From an uncultured Mycoplasmatota bacterium (lineage in GTDB: Bacteria > Bacillota_I > Bacilli_A > RF39 > UBA660), in assembly GCA_947056845.1 (NCBI GenBank), contig CAMSCJ010000001.1:96442-160441 (forward strand): a stretch of DNA of 64,000 nucleotides. Direction: 5' to 3'. A program made the translations under genes and the position numbers. Positions within the stretch are counted from its first letter, which is position 1. Each line of letters opens with the position of its first letter. Below the pieces are notes generated by a model. The model saw nothing but the letters and a program-made list of their open reading frames with translations, did not search any database and was not told the origin of the DNA. This document shows, piece by piece, positions 23,728-29,872 of this stretch.

Positions 23728-24225
23728 TTATTTATTATAAAACAATAAATTGTTTTTTTTCATAATTCCATCTATATCATAACATATTTCTTTACAATAT
23801 TCTAGTAAATTACCAAAATTTATACTATCAATTTGGCCATTTAATTTTATATATAACTCATTATCATATTTATATAACGAATAATCAATATTATTTAAAC
23901 AATTTTTCGCACCAAAAAAATCAGCTATTTTATATAAAAATTTGGCATTACTATGAATCGTCACTTGTGTATCGATTTGATCAATTAAATAATCATAATA
24001 TTCAATATCCTCATGTTTCATTGTAATAATAACACCATAGTTATCATCTATATATGCATCAATACTATAATAACCATTTACTTTAAGATTATAACAATTT
24101 TTAAGTTTTAGAAATAAATCATTCATATATTCTTCTAAGGTATTTAAGTCCAAAAAATCAATTTGTTTTGTATAATATTTATTTAAATAAATAATAATAT
24201 CTTCATCAATTACATTAATTTTCAT
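23728..24225 (-). CDS. Hypothetical protein, possibly a short MecA-like adaptor
   Basis: 165 aa. N- and C-terminal blocks loosely resemble MecA (YKYDNELYIKLNG...LLEYCKE versus the MecA C-terminal ClpC-binding region). Weak. Confidence 0.3.
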   Translation of the reverse strand: MKINVIDEDIIIYLNKYYTKQIDFLDLNTLEEYMNDLFLKLKNCYNLKVNGYYSIDAYIDDNYGVIITMKHEDIEYYDYLIDQIDTQVTIHSNAKFLYKIADFFGAKNCLNNIDYSLYKYDNELYIKLNGQIDSINFGNLLEYCKEICYDIDGIMKKNNLLFYNK

Positions 24226-24268: not shown

Positions 24269-24850
24269 TTACATTGTTCGTTCTATTTTTTCTAGTGTTT
24301 CATCACGACCCAATTTAGTAACATTTGAAAACATCACAAAATCGTCTCCGACAACTAATTCTAAATCTTCTAGTAGCTGTGCTCTTTGTTTTTGTTGTAA
24401 TGTAATTCCTACTTTATCGGTTTTGGTAGCAACAATTGTAACAGGTATTTTATAATGTTTTAAAAAATTATACATTATTGTATCATCATTACTTAATTTA
24501 TTTCGAAAATCAATCAACATAAAAACTTGTTTTAAATTAGGTCTATTTACTAAATAATCTTCCATCATTAAACCAAACTTTTTTTGTTTCTGTTTACTTA
24601 AATTGGCATAACCATAACCCGGAGCATCAACTAAATAGAAACTATTATTAACTAAATAAAAATTTATTGTTTGTGTTTTTCCAGGATTAGAAGAAGTTCT
24701 AGCATAATTTTTGCGACTTATAATGGTATTGATAAAACTGCTTTTGCCAACATTAGAACGCCCCACTAATAAATATTCTGGTAATTCGTCTGTTGGATAT
24801 TGACTACGTCTTACGGCACTAATAACTAAATCAACACTAGTGATTTTCAT
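24269..24850 (-). CDS. engB: Ribosome-biogenesis GTP-binding protein EngB/YsxC
   Basis: GRSNVGKSSFIN P-loop and DAPGYGY; of YihA/YsxC length. Confidence 0.85.
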   Translation of the reverse strand: MKITSVDLVISAVRRSQYPTDELPEYLLVGRSNVGKSSFINTIISRKNYARTSSNPGKTQTINFYLVNNSFYLVDAPGYGYANLSKQKQKKFGLMMEDYLVNRPNLKQVFMLIDFRNKLSNDDTIMYNFLKHYKIPVTIVATKTDKVGITLQQKQRAQLLEDLELVVGDDFVMFSNVTKLGRDETLEKIERTM

Positions 24851-24980
24851 TTTTCCACCTTTTTTCTACTAATATTATTATCTTAATTATACCCTACCAT
24901 CTATTTTTAGTCAACTTTCGGTTTAATATTGACTTTTTAATTATTAAGGTTATAATATTTGAAAAAAAGGGGGAAATTTT

Positions 24981-25877
24981 ATGGAAAGCAAAATTATAAA
25001 AGGTTTAAACCTTTCAGAAGATAATATGATAAATATAAGTTTTTATAAAGAACCGATAACAATTAGTGAAATGCAACCAATATATGAAAGTGATAAGCAA
25101 AAAGTAGAGTTAATTTCTATGGAAACAGGCATACCAATAACATATATATCTAATAATGCACTCAATTATATAAGAAATTGGATTAAAATTGATAATAAAT
25201 GGTTTTTTATTAAAAAGCCAAATAGTTATTTAAAATTTTTTAACGAACTACTTGGTCAAGAAATATCTAATTACTTTGAATTAGAGAGTGTTAGTTATAA
25301 GATTGCTAAAAAATTTGAAGATTGTTGTTTTGATACTTGTTTAATGTCTGAAAACTTTTTTGATAATAATTATCGTTATTTGACTTTTGACGATTTAAAA
25401 ATTGATACATCGAATAAAAAATTATCAGAACGTTTAGATCTAATTAAACAACTATGTCAAAAAAATAATGATAAAGAATATTTATTATTGCAAGATATTA
25501 TAAAAATGAGCATTCGCGATTTATATTCGAATATGGAAGATCGACATCAACGAAATTTTTTCTTTAAAAAAGATGATAAAGAGATTAGATTAGCCCCATT
25601 ATTTGATTATGAACTTTCTTTTATGATGCCACCTACTATATATCGAAATCCATTATTAAACCTTGATATTCATGATAACAATACTAGTAATTTAATTAAA
25701 AATGATGATATGTTTCAAGAATATATAAATAAATTAATGGATATAAATATTGAGAAATTATTAGAAATTACCCAAGAAAAAAATGGTATAAATATTTCAG
25801 ATGGTCTTAGGGAAATTTTTATTAATCATGATAGGAATGCTAAAAATATAGTTAAGACTTTCTACTTAAGAAAATAG
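24981..25877 (+). CDS. Protein carrying only the HipA C-terminal domain (putative Ser/Thr kinase, CtkA/HipA_C-like)
   Basis: Catalytic-loop-like DRHQRNFFF and LAPLFDYELSF match the HipA_C D-H-x-x-N and LAPAYD signatures. No HipB-like neighbour. Confidence 0.45.
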   Translation: MESKIIKGLNLSEDNMINISFYKEPITISEMQPIYESDKQKVELISMETGIPITYISNNALNYIRNWIKIDNKWFFIKKPNSYLKFFNELLGQEISNYFELESVSYKIAKKFEDCCFDTCLMSENFFDNNYRYLTFDDLKIDTSNKKLSERLDLIKQLCQKNNDKEYLLLQDIIKMSIRDLYSNMEDRHQRNFFFKKDDKEIRLAPLFDYELSFMMPPTIYRNPLLNLDIHDNNTSNLIKNDDMFQEYINKLMDINIEKLLEITQEKNGINISDGLREIFINHDRNAKNIVKTFYLRK

Positions 25878-25902
25878 AGACAAAAATTTGTCTCTATTTT
25901 TA
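25876..25902. terminator. Bidirectional rho-independent terminator between the HipA_C gene and uvrC
   Basis: AGAGACAAA-aa-TTTGTCTCT followed by ATTTTTA. Confidence 0.6.
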
Positions 25903-27681
25903 TAGATTATTTAAAAATTCTAATAAATTTTTAGCTACTTTTTCAGGAATAATTTTTGATAATTCTTCTATACTGGCCTCTTTCATTTTAGTTATATTGT
26001 GATATTTTTTTAATAATTCTTTTTTTCTTTTCTCACCTATTCCTTCAATATTATCTAAAGTACTAGATAAGCTACCCTTACTCCTTATTTGTTTATGATA
26101 ATTAATTGTAAAGTTGTGAACTTCATCTTGCATTCTTTCTAAATAGTAAAATAAATTGCTTTTTCTATCGATTGGTATTTCAACGATTGGATTATGAGCT
26201 AATAGTGCATTAGTAGCATGGTGATCGTCTTTTTTTAATCCCACAACAGGAATACTTAAACCAAGTGAATTAATGACTTCTCTAGCGACATTAATTTGTC
26301 CTAGACCACCATCAACAATAATTAAATCTGGTTTGGTTAAATCATCCTTTAAAACACGAAAATATCTACGGTAGATAACTTCATGCATCGTTCCATAATC
26401 ATCATTTTTATCTAGAGTTATTTTAAATTTTCGATAATCATTTTTACTTGGCTTTCCATCAATGAAAACGACCATTCCTGAAACATTGAAGGTTCCAAAT
26501 AAATGGGCATTATCAAAAAGTTCAATTCTATCTAGTTTATTTAAACCTAAAATATTTTTTAACTCTTCGTTTGCTCCAATTGTCTTTTCTTCGTCTCTTT
26601 TAATAAGTTCAAATTTTTCTTCTAATAAAATTTTCGCATTATTATTGGCCATCTCAACTAATTTATTTTTAACACCTTTTTGTGGTTTAATTATTTTAAC
26701 ATTTAAATATTCAAATAAAAGTTTTTCATCAACAATACTTGGTACAATAATTTCTTTAGGTAGTATTATACCTTTATCATAAAATGTAGCTATATACCTA
26801 TTAACTTCCGCATCTAATTCATCTATTAAAGGCATAATTTTAGAATGTTTTTCAACAATTTTTCCACCACGAATAAAAAATACTTGCATAGATAAATAGC
26901 CTTTATCTGTATAAAAACCAAATATATCGGTATTAATATTGTCTTTTATTTCAACTTTTTGTTTTGTTAAAACAAGTTTTATATAATCAAGCATCTCTTT
27001 TAATTCTTTAGCTTTTTCATAATTCATATTTTCACTTTGAAGATACATTTCATCTTCAATTTTTTTAGTTATAAAACTATGATCACCATTCAAGAAATGA
27101 ATTATTTCATTTTTTATTTGATCAGTTATTGTTTTATCAATCTTATACTGACAATATCCTAAACATTCGTGAATATGGTAATATAAGCAAGGTTTCTTAT
27201 CAAATGTCTTACATTTACGTAAAGGATATAATCTATTTAATAAATTAACAGTATTCCTTGCAGCTGTAACATTTGGATAAGGTCCATATAAATTAGTATT
27301 TTTTTTTCGTTTACGATTAATATTTCTAACAATTGATAATTTTGGTATATCCTCATTTATAAATTCAATATAAGGATAACTTTTATCATCACGTAATAAA
27401 ATATTATATTTAGGGTCATATTTTTTAATTAAATTATTTTCTAAAATTAATGACTCAATTTCTGATTCAACAACAATATATTCAAAATCAACAATTTCAC
27501 TAACTAGTTTAGCTGTTTTTCCAGTATGAGTCCCTCTAAAATAAGAACTTAAGCGTCGTTTTAATCTTTTAGCTTTACCAACATAAATAATTACACCATC
27601 GCAATTTTTCATTTGGTAACAGCCTGGTTTTTCAGGTACTAAGCTTAATTTTTGTTTTATTTTTTGATTTATTTCATCCAT
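25900..27681 (-). CDS. uvrC: Excinuclease ABC subunit C
   Basis: GIY-YIG N-terminus (GCYQMKN...IIYVGKAK), UvrBC motif, C-terminal HhH (GIGEKRKKELL). Confidence 0.9.
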   Translation of the reverse strand: MDEINQKIKQKLSLVPEKPGCYQMKNCDGVIIYVGKAKRLKRRLSSYFRGTHTGKTAKLVSEIVDFEYIVVESEIESLILENNLIKKYDPKYNILLRDDKSYPYIEFINEDIPKLSIVRNINRKRKKNTNLYGPYPNVTAARNTVNLLNRLYPLRKCKTFDKKPCLYYHIHECLGYCQYKIDKTITDQIKNEIIHFLNGDHSFITKKIEDEMYLQSENMNYEKAKELKEMLDYIKLVLTKQKVEIKDNINTDIFGFYTDKGYLSMQVFFIRGGKIVEKHSKIMPLIDELDAEVNRYIATFYDKGIILPKEIIVPSIVDEKLLFEYLNVKIIKPQKGVKNKLVEMANNNAKILLEEKFELIKRDEEKTIGANEELKNILGLNKLDRIELFDNAHLFGTFNVSGMVVFIDGKPSKNDYRKFKITLDKNDDYGTMHEVIYRRYFRVLKDDLTKPDLIIVDGGLGQINVAREVINSLGLSIPVVGLKKDDHHATNALLAHNPIVEIPIDRKSNLFYYLERMQDEVHNFTINYHKQIRSKGSLSSTLDNIEGIGEKRKKELLKKYHNITKMKEASIEELSKIIPEKVAKNLLEFLNNL

Positions 27682-27774
27682 TTAAATCACCAACTAATTT
27701 TATTATACCATGGCATAAGAAAAAAGAATTAAAATTAATCCTCTTTTCTTCCTATTTTCTTAACTTTTACCTTT

Positions 27775-28115
27775 TTAAAATCTTCTCCACCATCAGCAAT
27801 ACGTTGACTGCGAATTAATTTTGCAGCATCATAATAAGATATAAATGCTTCATCTATATTTATTGGTTTCATAATTGAAACCCTAACTTCACCACCATTA
27901 TATTTATCAGTATCCCACTGATTATAGAGCCCATATTCTATATTAGTTAAAATATCAACACAATTTGCATTATTATTTTTTTAACTAATACATAATCACC
28001 AATAGTAAGTTTTTTTCCCTATAATTGCATCGTTATCAACTTCATCAACTATTTCAATTAAACGACTCATATATAAGTCTTTCGTACTAATATTTTTTAT
28101 ACTCTTGTCATTCAT
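27775..28115 (-). pseudogene. ORF of about 113 codons broken by two homopolymer-A frameshifts
   Basis: MNDKSIKNISTKDLYMSRLIEIVDEVDNDAIIGKK / LTIGDYVLVKK / NNANCVDILTNIEYGLYNQWDTDKYNGGEVRVSIMKPINIDEAFISYYDAAKLIRSQRIADGGEDF is readable only by shifting frame at A7 runs. Could be sequencing error rather than decay. Confidence 0.3.
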
Positions 28116-29278: not shown

Positions 29279-29581
29279 TTACTTAAATAATTCACTATGA
29301 CTTCCAGTTGCAAAAAGCAATAGAATTAATGAATCGTCTTCAATTTTATAAACTAAAAGCCAGTCTGGCTCAATATGGCATTCATAACAATCTTTATACA
29401 TTTTATTATTTATAAGATTATGATTTTTATATTTAGACGACAATTCTTGACCATTTGCTAATACATTAAGAACGTCTAAAAATTTATTTTCATCTTTACC
29501 TTGTTTCAAAACTTTTTTAAAATCCTTTTTAAATTGACTGGTAAATTTTACTTCATACTTTGTACTTTGCAAATTAAACAT
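29279..29581 (-). CDS. yafQ: Type II toxin, YafQ/RelE family
   Basis: HIEPDWLLVYKIEDDSLILLLFATGSHSELF matches the YafQ signature H..PDWLL.Y...LVL.RTGSH.DLF. Confidence 0.8.
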   Translation of the reverse strand: MFNLQSTKYEVKFTSQFKKDFKKVLKQGKDENKFLDVLNVLANGQELSSKYKNHNLINNKMYKDCYECHIEPDWLLVYKIEDDSLILLLFATGSHSELFK

Positions 29582-29872
29582 TTATTTTTTTAAATCCTCA
29601 ATCATTTCATACATATTATGATAGCCTTTTGCCTTTATTTTTCCATTTAATATATTTTCACCATCTTGTAGTGCTTCTAATAAATGTTCACTAGGTTTAG
29701 GATTTTTAACCTCAAATGGTAAACCATCTTTATATATCAATTGTTTAATAGCCATATTTACAAATGTACTCATATTAAGTCCTAAACTTTTTAAAATTCC
29801 ATTTGCAACTTCTTTATCATGATTATCTACTTGAACACTAATTGCGCTTGTCAATGGTTCCATATTCTCCAC
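29582..29872 (-). CDS. dinJ: Type II antitoxin, RelB/DinJ family
   Basis: 96 aa. Ribbon-helix-helix-like N-terminus (SVQVDNHDKEVANGILKSLGLNMSTFVNMAIKQLI). Its stop abuts the yafQ start. Confidence 0.8.
   Translation of the reverse strand: MENMEPLTSAISVQVDNHDKEVANGILKSLGLNMSTFVNMAIKQLIYKDGLPFEVKNPKPSEHLLEALQDGENILNGKIKAKGYHNMYEMIEDLKK

What the first reader, a model, noticed from the sequence alone, without database searches (positions are those of the whole stretch)
24981..25877. Orphan kinase carrying only the HipA C-terminal domain, between engB and uvrC
The 298-aa protein carries the HipA_C catalytic-loop pattern (DRHQRN...LAPLFDY) but lacks the HipA N-terminal domain and any HipB-like HTH partner. 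It is bounded by its own perfect terminator. Short HipA-like or CtkA-like kinases are poorly characterised, and a stand-alone copy in a reduced AT-rich genome suggests either a toxin with an unlinked antitoxin or a signalling kinase.
Basis: partly seen in the sequence, partly recalled or inferred. Interest (0 to 1): 0.5.

Follow-up and report, generated by a model that had tools for sequence, protein, structure and literature searches.

The report
Stand-alone, fast-evolving HipA/CtkA-like kinase
The gene is real and encodes a small, probably active protein kinase distantly related to the bacterial HipA toxin and the Helicobacter CtkA kinase; it belongs to an unannotated family found only in uncultured gut bacteria, has no antitoxin partner, and evolves much faster than its housekeeping neighbours.

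Summary
The 298-aa ORF at 24981..25877 (+) is real. It has a conserved sigma-70-type promoter, a strong ribosome-binding site and a perfect 14-bp hairpin terminator shared with convergent uvrC. There is no upstream ORF, HipB, HipS or HIRAN partner.

The family has at least 404 clusters, none with a functional annotation or Pfam assignment in the sources searched. Every locus recovered comes from low-GC uncultured gut Bacilli; none from phages, plasmids or viral contigs. No neighbour is conserved across the family.

Within the window's clade the gene keeps its slot beside engB. It has diverged to 36-72% identity while EngB, Der and UvrC stay 85-99% identical. dS is similar, but dN/dS is 0.25-0.5 against 0.01-0.10.

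It lacks a recognisable Gly-rich loop, and its catalytic loop is DRxxxN rather than Hip's DxHxKN.

Verdict: a new variant of a known kind, not a classical hipBA module. Substrate unknown.

The parts
24886..24914 (-). Context: divergent sigma-70-type promoter of engB (TTGACT-17-TATAAT). It lies back-to-back with the kinase promoter in the 130-nt intergenic region.
   Evidence: 11 of 12 consensus positions matched. The AGTCAA element is invariant in 5 orthologous loci.
24929..24934 (+). -35 hexamer TTGACT of the kinase promoter
   Evidence: TTGAC is invariant in window, L028, L006, L001 and L004. TTGACT is also present in L034.
24951..24956 (+). -10 hexamer TATAAT, 16 nt downstream of the -35 hexamer
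   Evidence: It is invariant in 5 orthologous loci and present in L034.
24967..24974 (+). Ribosome-binding site AAGGGGGA, 6-7 nt before the ATG
   Evidence: Read. A purine-rich equivalent is present in the orthologues.
24981..25877 (+). CDS of the 298-aa HipA/CtkA-like kinase, monocistronic
24981..25160 (+). N-terminal module, aa 1-60: three short beta-strands, then a helix-turn-helix-like segment. This is the most variable part among orthologues.
   Evidence: AF2 secondary structure. The 10-aa indel and variability are seen. Segment dN/dS is 0.24-0.80.
25113..25136 (+). Subfamily motif I-S-M-E-T-G-I-P (aa 45-52). It sits where the Gly-rich loop would be expected. Its function is unknown; S46 and T49 as autophosphorylation sites is speculation.
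   Evidence: E48, T49 and P52 are each 21/23 in A3; each of those positions keeps that residue in about 40% of the 105-member set. There is no similarity to the HipH HTH or to HipB.
25179..25214 (+). Beta-hairpin W67..W74-F-F-I-K78, ending in the putative ATP-binding lysine K78 (25212-25214)
   Evidence: K78 is kept in 102/105 and W67 in 81/105. The hairpin aligns to HipA 158-171.
25242..25256 (+). N-E-L-L-G motif in the alphaC-like helix. E89 (25245-25247) is the putative partner of K78.
   Evidence: E89 103/105, G92 104/105, N88 87/105. It aligns to HipA 'DNEYY'.
25539..25556 (+). Catalytic loop D187-R-H-Q-R-N192
   Evidence: D187 103/105, R188 97/105, N192 100/105, H189 only 26/105. It aligns to HipA D309/H311/N314 and to Legionella HipT DMHLKN.
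25590..25613 (+). Mg-binding motif L-A-P-L-F-D209-Y-E
   Evidence: D209 is kept in 105/105. It aligns to HipA D332 and to HipT 'SPAYD'.
25870..25901 (.). Bidirectional intrinsic terminator. A 14-bp perfect stem with an AAAU loop, flanked by an A-tract and a U-tract. It overlaps the kinase stop codon (25875-25877) and the uvrC stop codon (25900-25902).

Best explanation
The gene encodes a self-contained, cytoplasmic, catalytically competent atypical protein kinase. It belongs to the HipA/CtkA branch of the PI3/4-kinase-like fold.

Proposed mechanism:
- K78 and E89 position ATP.
- N192 and D209 bind Mg2+.
- D187 acts as the catalytic base that transfers the gamma-phosphate to a Ser or Thr hydroxyl.
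These residue assignments are shown by conservation and alignment. Their roles are inferred from HipA, HipT and CtkA.

Expression: the gene is transcribed alone, from a conserved sigma-A-type promoter that diverges from engB, and ends at a bidirectional hairpin.

It is not a two-gene hipBA, hipBST or hipIN module. There is no HipB, HipS or HIRAN partner, no HipA N-subdomain and no HipH-type HTH. Whatever restrains the kinase must therefore act in cis or from an unlinked factor. The N-terminal 60-aa module with its conserved S-x-E-T-G-[IV]-P motif, possibly through autophosphorylation, is a candidate (inference).

The closest functional analogue is the monocistronic HipH/YjjJ, an endogenous regulatory or growth-modulating kinase. 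Its known substrates are L31 and CsrA. No substrate is known here.

The gene is a vertically inherited, syntenic member of a lineage-specific family. Its catalytic core is conserved, but its peripheral surfaces evolve 5-15 times faster than neighbouring housekeeping proteins.

Confidence is about 0.8 that it is an active HipA/CtkA-like kinase and about 0.45 for the whole statement.
For: Fold:
- The AF2 model has pLDDT 82.6 and pTM 0.84.
- Foldseek gives CtkA E = 6.9e-7, then HipA and HipT.

Sequence:
- Pfam HipA_C E = 6.4e-5 for the window protein.
- The family consensus scores 31.7 bits against a 30.5 cut-off.
- PADLOC PDC-M03A (a HipA-like kinase) E = 2.7e-8. 58 of 105 relatives hit it, best 9.7e-14.

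Active site:
- K78 102/105, E89 103/105, D187 103/105, N192 100/105, D209 105/105.
- These residues align to HipA D309, N314 and D332 and to the HipT catalytic loop.

Monocistronic:
- Promoter TTGACT-16-TATAAT, conserved in orthologues.
- Hairpin terminator.
- No flanking small ORF.
- Neighbours are engB and uvrC.

No partner: no neighbour is shared across 22 loci.

Not mobile: nothing in phages, plasmids or IMG/VR.

Vertical but fast:
- dS equals that of the flanks (0.58-0.65, and about 1.0-1.1 for L034).
- dN/dS is 0.25-0.50, against 0.01-0.05 for engB and der and 0.03-0.10 for uvrC.
- The syntenic orthologue in L034 is 36% identical while EngB is 95% identical.
- The catalytic segment is the most constrained.

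Precedent for a monocistronic Hip kinase: PMC8262856 and PMC9948734.
Against: - No Gly-rich loop is recognisable. HipA_C profile positions 1-33 stay unmatched, so nucleotide binding may differ or be weak.
- Family-wide, the catalytic loop is DRxxxN. The His and Lys that Hip kinases conserve are absent, and this pattern resembles lipid kinases.
- hhalign against single HipA and HipH sequences gives low probabilities, 12.6% and 5%. The family profile finds no PDB chain significantly by sequence.
- Which residue is the ATP-binding Lys is not settled. hhalign puts K78 opposite HipA K171, not K181.
- The substrate class, regulation and phenotype are all inferred.
- An unlinked antitoxin cannot be excluded from one 64-kb window.
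Confidence: 0.45

Rival explanations
1. It is a HipA-type growth-arrest toxin of a type II TA system whose antitoxin is encoded elsewhere or is not a protein. The antitoxin could be a small RNA or a metabolite, as c-di-GMP has been proposed for HipH.
For: It is related to Hip toxin kinases. Its catalytic residues are intact. The monocistronic HipH is toxic when overproduced, and a paper title listed proposes c-di-GMP as its antitoxin. Two distant family loci (L017, L026) carry a 69-71-aa ORF immediately upstream.
Against: No partner is conserved in 22 loci. There is no tandem-repeat or antisense feature of type III or type I systems. The gene is syntenic and vertically inherited in the clade, and absent from plasmids, phages and viral contigs. 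A near-consensus promoter plus a strong RBS would be dangerous for an unguarded toxin. No PADLOC match to a HIRAN-type partner (PDC-M03B) was found among 10 small window proteins. A canonical YafQ-RelB pair in the same window shows what a linked TA looks like in this genome.
Confidence: 0.15
2. It is a conflict gene. It could be a single-gene anti-phage sensor kinase acting by abortive infection, or a kinase aimed at phage or competitor proteins. An arms race would drive its rapid evolution.
For: Its best curated sequence match is PADLOC PDC-M03A, the kinase of a candidate defence pair made of HipA plus a HIRAN protein. dN is 5-15 times that of the neighbours at equal dS, and the peripheral segments reach dN/dS of about 1. 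Gerdes et al. propose phage-triggered activation for related short Hip kinases. The DNA just downstream is variable: a T7SS cluster in L001 and glycosyltransferase remnants in L006.
Against: The HIRAN partner that defines PDC-M03 is absent. The gene is not in a defence island, and its flanks are engB, der and uvrC. It is a fixed syntenic gene, not a patchily distributed one. Overall dN/dS is below 1, which fits relaxed constraint just as well. PDC-M03 is itself only a candidate system.
Confidence: 0.15
3. It phosphorylates a non-protein substrate such as a lipid, glycan or small molecule, as PI4K type II and Fam20B do.
Against: The top structural and sequence matches are protein kinases: CtkA, HipA, HipT and PDC-M03A. 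The PI3_PI4 score is below threshold, 19.4 vs 27.1 bits. There is no membrane-binding or lipid-related context.
Confidence: 0.1
4. It is a sporulation or spore-coat kinase analogous to CotH.
Against: The conserved promoter is sigma-A-like, not sigma-E or sigma-K-like. Identity to CotH is 7%, and only 1 of 105 members touches Pfam CotH. Sequence affinity is to the Hip family.
Confidence: 0.07
5. It is a decaying or inactive pseudokinase.
For: The protein evolves fast, and no Gly-rich loop can be recognised.
Against: The reading frame is intact in all syntenic orthologues. dN/dS is below 1. All five catalytic residues are kept in at least 95% of 105 diverse relatives, and the catalytic segment is the most constrained.
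Confidence: 0.03

Closest known systems
CtkA (JHP0940), the Helicobacter pylori cell-translocating Ser/Thr kinase (PDB 3AKJ)
   Different: Identity is only 15-19%, and no sequence-level hit was found. CtkA is cargo of the tfs3 ICE, depends on a T4SS, and has a disordered basic C-terminal tail ending KRRR (PMC5536186). The window protein is chromosomal and syntenic, lies on no mobile element, and ends in a long helix.
Short clade-XI Hip kinases (HipI, HipJ, HipM, HipG), equivalent to PADLOC PDC-M03A
   Same: This is the best curated sequence match, E = 2.7e-8, hit by 58 of 105 relatives. The length class is the same, 279-321 aa. These kinases are also core kinase only and occur in Firmicutes (PMC8262856).
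   Different: Those kinases are bicistronic with a HipS-, HipS-HIRAN-, Stl-like or resolvase-like partner, and they keep a Gly-rich loop near the N terminus. Here there is no partner, no recognisable Gly-rich loop, and a 60-aa N-terminal module instead.
HipH (YjjJ) of E. coli
   Same: It is a monocistronic Hip-family kinase without a linked antitoxin. It acts as an endogenous Ser/Thr kinase on cellular proteins, L31 and CsrA.
   Different: HipH is 443 aa and has an N-terminal HTH domain. The window family shows no similarity to that domain, and only a weak C-lobe alignment was obtained.
HipA of the hipBA module (E. coli K-12)
   Different: HipA is 440 aa and has N-subdomain-1, the Gly-rich loop with S150, a DxHxKN catalytic loop, and an upstream hipB. 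All four are absent here.

Membership tests
Pfam HipA_C (PF07804) | Whole-protein score at or above the gathering cut-off of 30.5 bits | tested here: inconclusive
   The window protein scores 23.1 bits, E = 6.4e-5, below the cut-off. 13 of 14 close homologues and 20 of 105 distant ones give sub-threshold hits. The consensus of the 105-member alignment scores 31.7 bits, E = 1.5e-7, over profile positions 34-206 of 213, just above the cut-off.
Hip kinases (Gerdes et al. 2021, four core motifs) | Gly-rich (P-) loop with an adjacent Ser or Thr | tested here: not met
   No GxQxK-like motif is present. HipA_C profile positions 1-33 are unmatched. hhalign starts only after HipA's loop, at residue 158. 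A different subfamily motif, I-S-x-E-T-G-[IV]-P, lies 15-25 residues upstream of the hairpin. Whether it is equivalent is untested.
Hip kinases (Gerdes et al. 2021, four core motifs) | Catalytic motif D-x-H-x-K-N | tested here: inconclusive
   D187, H189 and N192 are present in the window protein and align to HipA D309, H311 and N314. The Lys is replaced: position +4 is R191 and is variable. Across 105 relatives only D, R(+1) and N are conserved, and His occurs in 26 of 105.
Hip kinases (Gerdes et al. 2021, four core motifs) | Mg2+-binding Asp | tested here: met
   D209 is kept in 105 of 105. It aligns to HipA D332 and to HipT 'PAYD'.
Hip kinases (Gerdes et al. 2021, four core motifs) | Activation loop | not testable with these tools
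   No reliable residue-level structural alignment or coordinates were available. The loop 79-82 between K78 and the alphaC-like helix is very short.
hipBA / hipBST / hipIN-type toxin-antitoxin module | Adjacent co-transcribed antitoxin gene (HipB, HipS, HipN, HipR or HipP) | tested here: not met
   No ORF of 20 aa or more lies in the 130-nt upstream gap. The gene has its own promoter and terminator. The neighbours are engB and uvrC. No neighbour is conserved in 22 loci.
HipA sensu stricto | N-subdomain-1 of about 100 aa (Pfam HipA_N / Couple_hipA) | tested here: not met
   No such Pfam hit appears even at E up to 10. The protein is 298 aa. The N-terminal 37 aa are three short, variable strands.
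HipH (YjjJ) | Monocistronic gene plus an N-terminal HTH domain | tested here: not met
   The monocistronic criterion is met. The HTH criterion is not: hhalign of A3 against HipH residues 1-127 gives probability 0.08%, and against HipB 0.07%.
PADLOC PDC-M03 (candidate defence pair, HipA-like plus HIRAN) | Both components present: an A kinase and a B HIRAN protein | tested here: not met
   The A model is hit, E = 2.7e-8. No B component is adjacent, and none was found among 10 small window proteins. The system's composition is taken from PMC13245101.
CtkA-like kinases | Detectable sequence homology to CtkA; for CtkA proper, an ICE/T4SS context and a basic disordered C-terminal tail | tested here: not met
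   The similarity is structural only. No sequence hit was found with the single protein or with profiles. There is no mobile-element context. The C terminus is helical.
CotH (PF08757) and PI3_PI4_kinase (PF00454) | Pfam score at or above the gathering cut-off | tested here: not met
   CotH is hit by 1 of 105 members, below threshold. PI3_PI4 is hit by 4 of 105, and the consensus scores 19.4 vs 27.1 bits.

The most novel reading that the evidence does not exclude
This is a previously unrecognised class of Hip-like kinase: partner-less, fixed at a housekeeping locus, yet evolving at arms-race speed. The positional orthologue is 36% identical beside a 95%-identical EngB. The kinase would work as a single-gene sensor-effector in conflict with phages or other gut microbes. 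Its variable outer surfaces would recognise a fast-changing trigger or target, and its N-terminal S-x-E-T-G-P module would replace the Gly-rich loop and antitoxin as the built-in switch.
Probability: 0.15. Interest if true: 0.65.

Novelty: new variant of a known kind. Interest (0 to 1): 0.42.

Why it matters
Hip kinases are the textbook persistence toxins, and their diversity is still being mapped. This family is not captured by Pfam or NCBIfam and is reached by PADLOC only through its PDC-M03A kinase models. It is confined to uncultured low-GC gut Bacilli. It combines features not described together:
- It is monocistronic, with no HTH, HipS or HIRAN.
- It has no recognisable Gly-rich loop.
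- Its catalytic loop is of the PI3/4-kinase type, DRxxxN.
- It is stably syntenic but evolves very fast at the protein level.

If the kinase is active, it extends the range of ways a Hip-like kinase can be kept in check without an antitoxin. It would also give a tractable single-gene test case for heterologous expression, since the host cannot be cultured. If it is only a lineage-specific regulatory kinase, it is a useful annotation but not a surprise.

Tried and rejected
- A small upstream antitoxin ORF in 24851..24980: none.
- Type I or type III RNA antitoxin features (tandem repeats, antisense structure): none. Rfam found only two tRNAs in the window.
- The N-terminal 'ISMETGIPITYI' looked HTH-like to me. 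hhalign against the HipH HTH region and against HipB gave nothing, so the HTH reading is not supported.
- Sequence search of PDB with the protein and with two family profiles gave no significant hit. The best was Legionella HipT at E = 0.055.
- NCBIfam gave no hit. PHROGs gave only noise.
- Choline-binding-repeat hits on the W-x6-W-Y-Y hairpin are sub-threshold and were judged a compositional or beta-hairpin resemblance.
- Mobile-element origin: tblastn against phages and plasmids and a pattern scan of IMG/VR all found nothing.
- A conserved partner by neighbourhood clustering of 22 loci: none. A 69-71-aa upstream ORF occurs only in L017 and L026, and only the last 18 residues are similar.
- Allelic replacement by horizontal transfer as the cause of low identity: rejected. 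dS of the kinase equals that of the flanking genes at three divergence levels.
- A link to the T7SS cluster next to the gene in L001: rejected as a local insertion, since it is absent from the window, L004, L006 and L034.
- The afdb50 fold library was unavailable.
- Host taxonomy via UvrC homologues returned only unnamed metagenomic proteins.
- The search for related loci failed with the 105-member alignment because no stretch was conserved enough. It was rerun with the 23-member alignment.
Full report
**1. Observation**

DRHQRN is residues 187-192 (25539..25556). LAPLFDY is residues 204-210.

The left neighbour, at 24269..24850 (-), is an MMR_HSR1 GTPase of EngB/YsxC size and context. The right neighbour, at 25900..27681 (-), is UvrC with GIY-YIG, UvrC RNaseH and HhH domains.

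The 130-nt gap to engB holds two back-to-back near-consensus sigma-70-type promoters. TTGACT-16-TATAAT at 24929..24956 serves the kinase. TTGACT-17-TATAAT on the minus strand at 24914..24886 serves engB. Each matches 11 of 12 consensus positions. An AAGGGGGA ribosome-binding site lies 6-7 nt before the ATG. The gap contains no ORF of 20 aa or more, apart from a 21-aa out-of-frame TTG ORF.

The 22 nt between the convergent stop codons are filled by a perfect 14-bp inverted repeat. It folds at -15.7 kcal/mol, z = -6.55. With its A-tract and U-tract it should terminate both genes. The window is 25.3% GC.

**2. What the protein is**

*Single-sequence searches.* On its own the sequence is only weakly HipA-like.
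- Pfam HipA_C scores 23.1 bits, E = 6.4e-5, below the 30.5-bit cut-off, and covers only the C-lobe.
- NCBIfam finds nothing.
- PDB sequence search finds nothing.
- The best curated match is PADLOC PDC-M03A, E = 2.7e-8 over aa 72-253.

PDC-M03 is a two-gene candidate defence system made of a HipA-like kinase and a HIRAN protein (PMC13245101). This composition resembles the hipIN organisation that Gerdes et al. describe for short clade-XI Hip kinases (PMC8262856).

*Family size.* The word-indexed search of 5.8 billion proteins found 13 homologues at 49-97% identity. One is labelled 'hypothetical protein' by NCBI; none carries a functional annotation or a Pfam assignment. An exhaustive profile search of 1.84 billion cluster representatives found 404 proteins at E up to 1e-3 and 228 at E up to 1e-10. 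Among the 150 listed hits the full-length proteins are about 250-320 aa; some hits are fragments.

*Conservation.* In an alignment of 105 diverse members:
- D209 is invariant.
- K78, E89, G92, Y133, D187, R188 and N192 are each kept in 97-104 sequences.

*Family-level assignment.* The consensus of that alignment passes Pfam's HipA_C cut-off, at 31.7 bits, E = 1.5e-7, over profile positions 34-206 of 213. 58 of the 105 members hit PDC-M03A, best 9.7e-14. Superfamily assignment is therefore statistically supported at the family level. The family itself is not curated.

*Structure.* The AlphaFold2 model built from 14 homologues is confident, with pLDDT 82.6 and pTM 0.84.
- Next come CotH (13.1), Shewanella HipA (12.3), Legionella HipT (12.1), Fam20 kinases (about 11.5), E. 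coli HipA (11.4), HipT (11.2) and PI4KIIalpha (10.9).
- Foldseek agrees: CtkA at E = 6.9e-7, TM 0.54-0.58, then HipA and HipT.

*Residue alignments.* hhalign of the family against E. coli HipA is weak, E = 0.0023 and probability 12.6%. It is nevertheless chemically sensible.
- D187, H189 and N192 fall on HipA D309, H311 and N314.
- D209 falls on D332.
- The NELLG helix falls on HipA's DNEYY.
- The W-x6-W hairpin falls on HipA 158-171.

The family profile also aligns its catalytic loop and Mg-binding motif with Legionella HipT, at E = 0.055.

The order of secondary-structure elements is hairpin ending in K78, then a helix carrying E89, then two long strands, then the C-lobe. This is the canonical beta3-Lys / alphaC-Glu arrangement; that reading is my inference. 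The protein therefore has the whole core kinase, not a fragment.

**3. Departures from known Hip kinases**

(a) There is no recognisable Gly-rich loop. The first 33 positions of the HipA_C profile are never matched. The stretch before the hairpin is helical. In its place sits a subfamily motif, I-S-x-E-T-G-[IV]-P. E48, T49 and P52 are each present in 21 of 23 closer relatives; each of those positions keeps that residue in about 40% of the 105. I first read it as an HTH, but it shows no similarity to the HipH HTH or to HipB.

(b) The family-wide catalytic loop is D-R-x-x-x-N. Arg at +1 is kept in 97 of 105, His at +2 in only 26 of 105, and there is no Lys at +4. This is the PI3/4-kinase pattern rather than Hip's D-x-H-x-K-N.

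(c) There is no HipA N-subdomain.

(d) There is no partner gene (see section 4).

**4. Context and evolution**

*Distribution.* The genome collection yielded 22 loci. All come from uncultured metagenome-assembled genomes at 23-31% GC: most are labelled 'Bacilli bacterium', a few carry other labels (Muribaculaceae, Clostridium sp., 'bacterium'), and where a sample origin can be read from the title it is gut or faecal (mouse, rabbit, deer, human). Clustering all neighbouring ORFs found no gene shared across the family. A 69-71-aa upstream ORF occurs in only two loci. One genome has two paralogues 2 kb apart (L012). tblastn against 50,697 phage and 72,556 plasmid records and a pattern scan of IMG/VR all found nothing.

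*Synteny within the window's clade.* The gene keeps its slot, divergent from engB. The promoter hexamers are invariant. The DNA downstream varies:
- directly uvrC in the window, L004, L028 and L034;
- a type VII secretion cluster in L001, with an EssC-like protein carrying FHA and FtsK domains, DUF4176, and an 84-88-aa ORF I recognised by eye as YukD-like (not confirmed by any search);
- two ORFs in L006 that look by eye like fragments of a family-2 glycosyltransferase (not confirmed by any search).

*Rate contrast.*

| Comparison with window | EngB identity | UvrC identity | Kinase identity |
|---|---|---|---|
| L006 / L001 | 99% | 97% (L006) | 72% / 69% |
| L004 | 97% | 95% | 55-59% |
| L034 | 95% | 85% | 36-38% |

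Nei-Gojobori estimates show that the kinase's dS matches its neighbours: 0.58-0.65 against 0.5-0.9, and about 1.1 against about 1.0 for L034. Its dN, however, is 5-25 times higher. That gives dN/dS of 0.25-0.50, against 0.01-0.05 for engB and der and 0.03-0.10 for uvrC.

Equal dS argues against allelic replacement by horizontal transfer and for fast evolution in place. Constraint is strongest on the catalytic segment 166-215, with omega 0.06-0.38. It is weakest on the N-terminal 60 aa, on 126-165 and on 216-256, where omega reaches about 1 in some pairs. In a more distant relative (UvrC 75% identical) the synteny is broken and no kinase lies beside uvrC.

**5. Interpretation**

*Shown:*
- a real, expressed-looking, monocistronic gene;
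- a HipA/CtkA-type kinase fold;
- a complete and strongly conserved K-E-D-N-D catalytic set;
- no linked partner;
- vertical, syntenic inheritance;
- no association with mobile elements;
- unusually fast protein evolution outside the active site.

*Inferred:*
- It is an active protein Ser/Thr kinase acting inside the cell.
- Its activity is restrained in cis, or by something unlinked.
- Functionally it is closest to the monocistronic HipH/YjjJ, which phosphorylates L31 and CsrA and perturbs ribosome assembly (PMC9948734).

The adjacency to two ribosome-assembly GTPases, EngB and Der, is suggestive. It is clade-specific, however, and I do not rely on it.

*Rivals.* The classical reading of a toxin with an unlinked antitoxin is possible but disfavoured by the promoter and RBS strength, the fixed locus and the lack of any co-occurring partner. 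The main live alternative is a conflict or defence role, given the rate pattern and the PDC-M03A affinity. A non-protein substrate (suggested by the DRxxxN loop) and a CotH-like spore role are minor rivals.

**6. Comparison and novelty**

- The protein works like a short Hip/CtkA kinase.
- It is not a member of HipA sensu stricto: no N-subdomain, no hipB, no Gly-rich loop.
- It is not HipH: no HTH.
- It is not a hipIN / PDC-M03 module: no HIRAN partner.
- It is not CtkA: no sequence homology, no ICE or T4SS context, no basic tail (PMC5536186).
- Its Pfam HipA_C membership is marginal.

I rate it a new variant of a known kind: an uncurated, lineage-restricted, partner-less Hip-like kinase family with an altered nucleotide-binding and catalytic-loop signature and arms-race-like evolution. 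Interest is moderate, at 0.42. It is worth a bench test. It is not categorically new, and no substrate or phenotype can be claimed.

Noticed in passing
window 29279-29872 (-): A canonical type II toxin-antitoxin pair. The 100-aa toxin hits YafQ_toxin/ParE_toxin (E = 1e-30) and overlaps by one base the 96-aa RelB antitoxin. The pair is present in L006 and L028 but absent from the syntenic region of L004, so it is an accessory insertion in this clade.
   Followed up: partly
window 27735-28115 (-): The 127-128-aa gene that follows uvrC in relatives (L028 2889-3272, L004 8755-9141; no Pfam) is broken here. tblastn shows 86% identity, with two in-frame stops and a 1-residue gap around residues 36-50. 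This leaves ORFs of 39 and 45 aa. It is either a pseudogene or an assembly error.
   Followed up: yes
window 23728-24225 (-): A 165-aa ORF between der and engB has no Pfam or PADLOC hit. It is conserved in position in every close relative. It is also fairly fast-evolving: 65-87% identity and dN/dS 0.10-0.27.
   Followed up: partly
L001 6926-12855; L006 5927-6640: The interval between the kinase gene and uvrC is an insertion hotspot in otherwise collinear genomes. L001 carries a type VII secretion cluster: an 84-88-aa ORF that looks YukD-like by eye (not searched), a 1545-aa EssC-like protein with FHA and FtsK domains, and DUF4176. L006 carries two ORFs that look by eye like fragments of a family-2 glycosyltransferase (not searched).
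   Followed up: partly
L012 4881-5747 and 7749-8687: Two paralogues of the kinase family lie 2 kb apart in one Hadza-gut MAG. They are separated by ORFs that look by eye like a GntR-type regulator and ABC-transporter genes. Some genomes therefore carry several copies.
   Followed up: no
L017 4668-4883; L026 4633-4842: A 69-71-aa ORF that looks coiled-coil by eye ends 2-21 nt before the kinase start in two distant family loci. The two ORFs share only their last 18 residues (61% identity). This may be a clade-specific partner. It is absent from the window and from 20 other loci.
   Followed up: partly
L024 5873-6811; L026 5830-7311: In one subclade the family gene lies directly upstream of an ORF I recognised by eye as spoIVA-like, and in L017, L023 and L024 downstream of an efp-like ORF plus a 142-aa ORF of unknown function. 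None of these identities was confirmed by a search. The family seems to sit repeatedly among housekeeping and sporulation genes rather than in islands.
   Followed up: no
L007 and L018 record titles: Two MAGs carrying this low-GC Bacilli-type locus are labelled 'uncultured Muribaculaceae bacterium' in their records. The L007 contig is syntenic with, and up to 97% identical in protein to, the 'Bacilli bacterium' loci. This looks like a mislabelled or chimeric bin.
   Followed up: no
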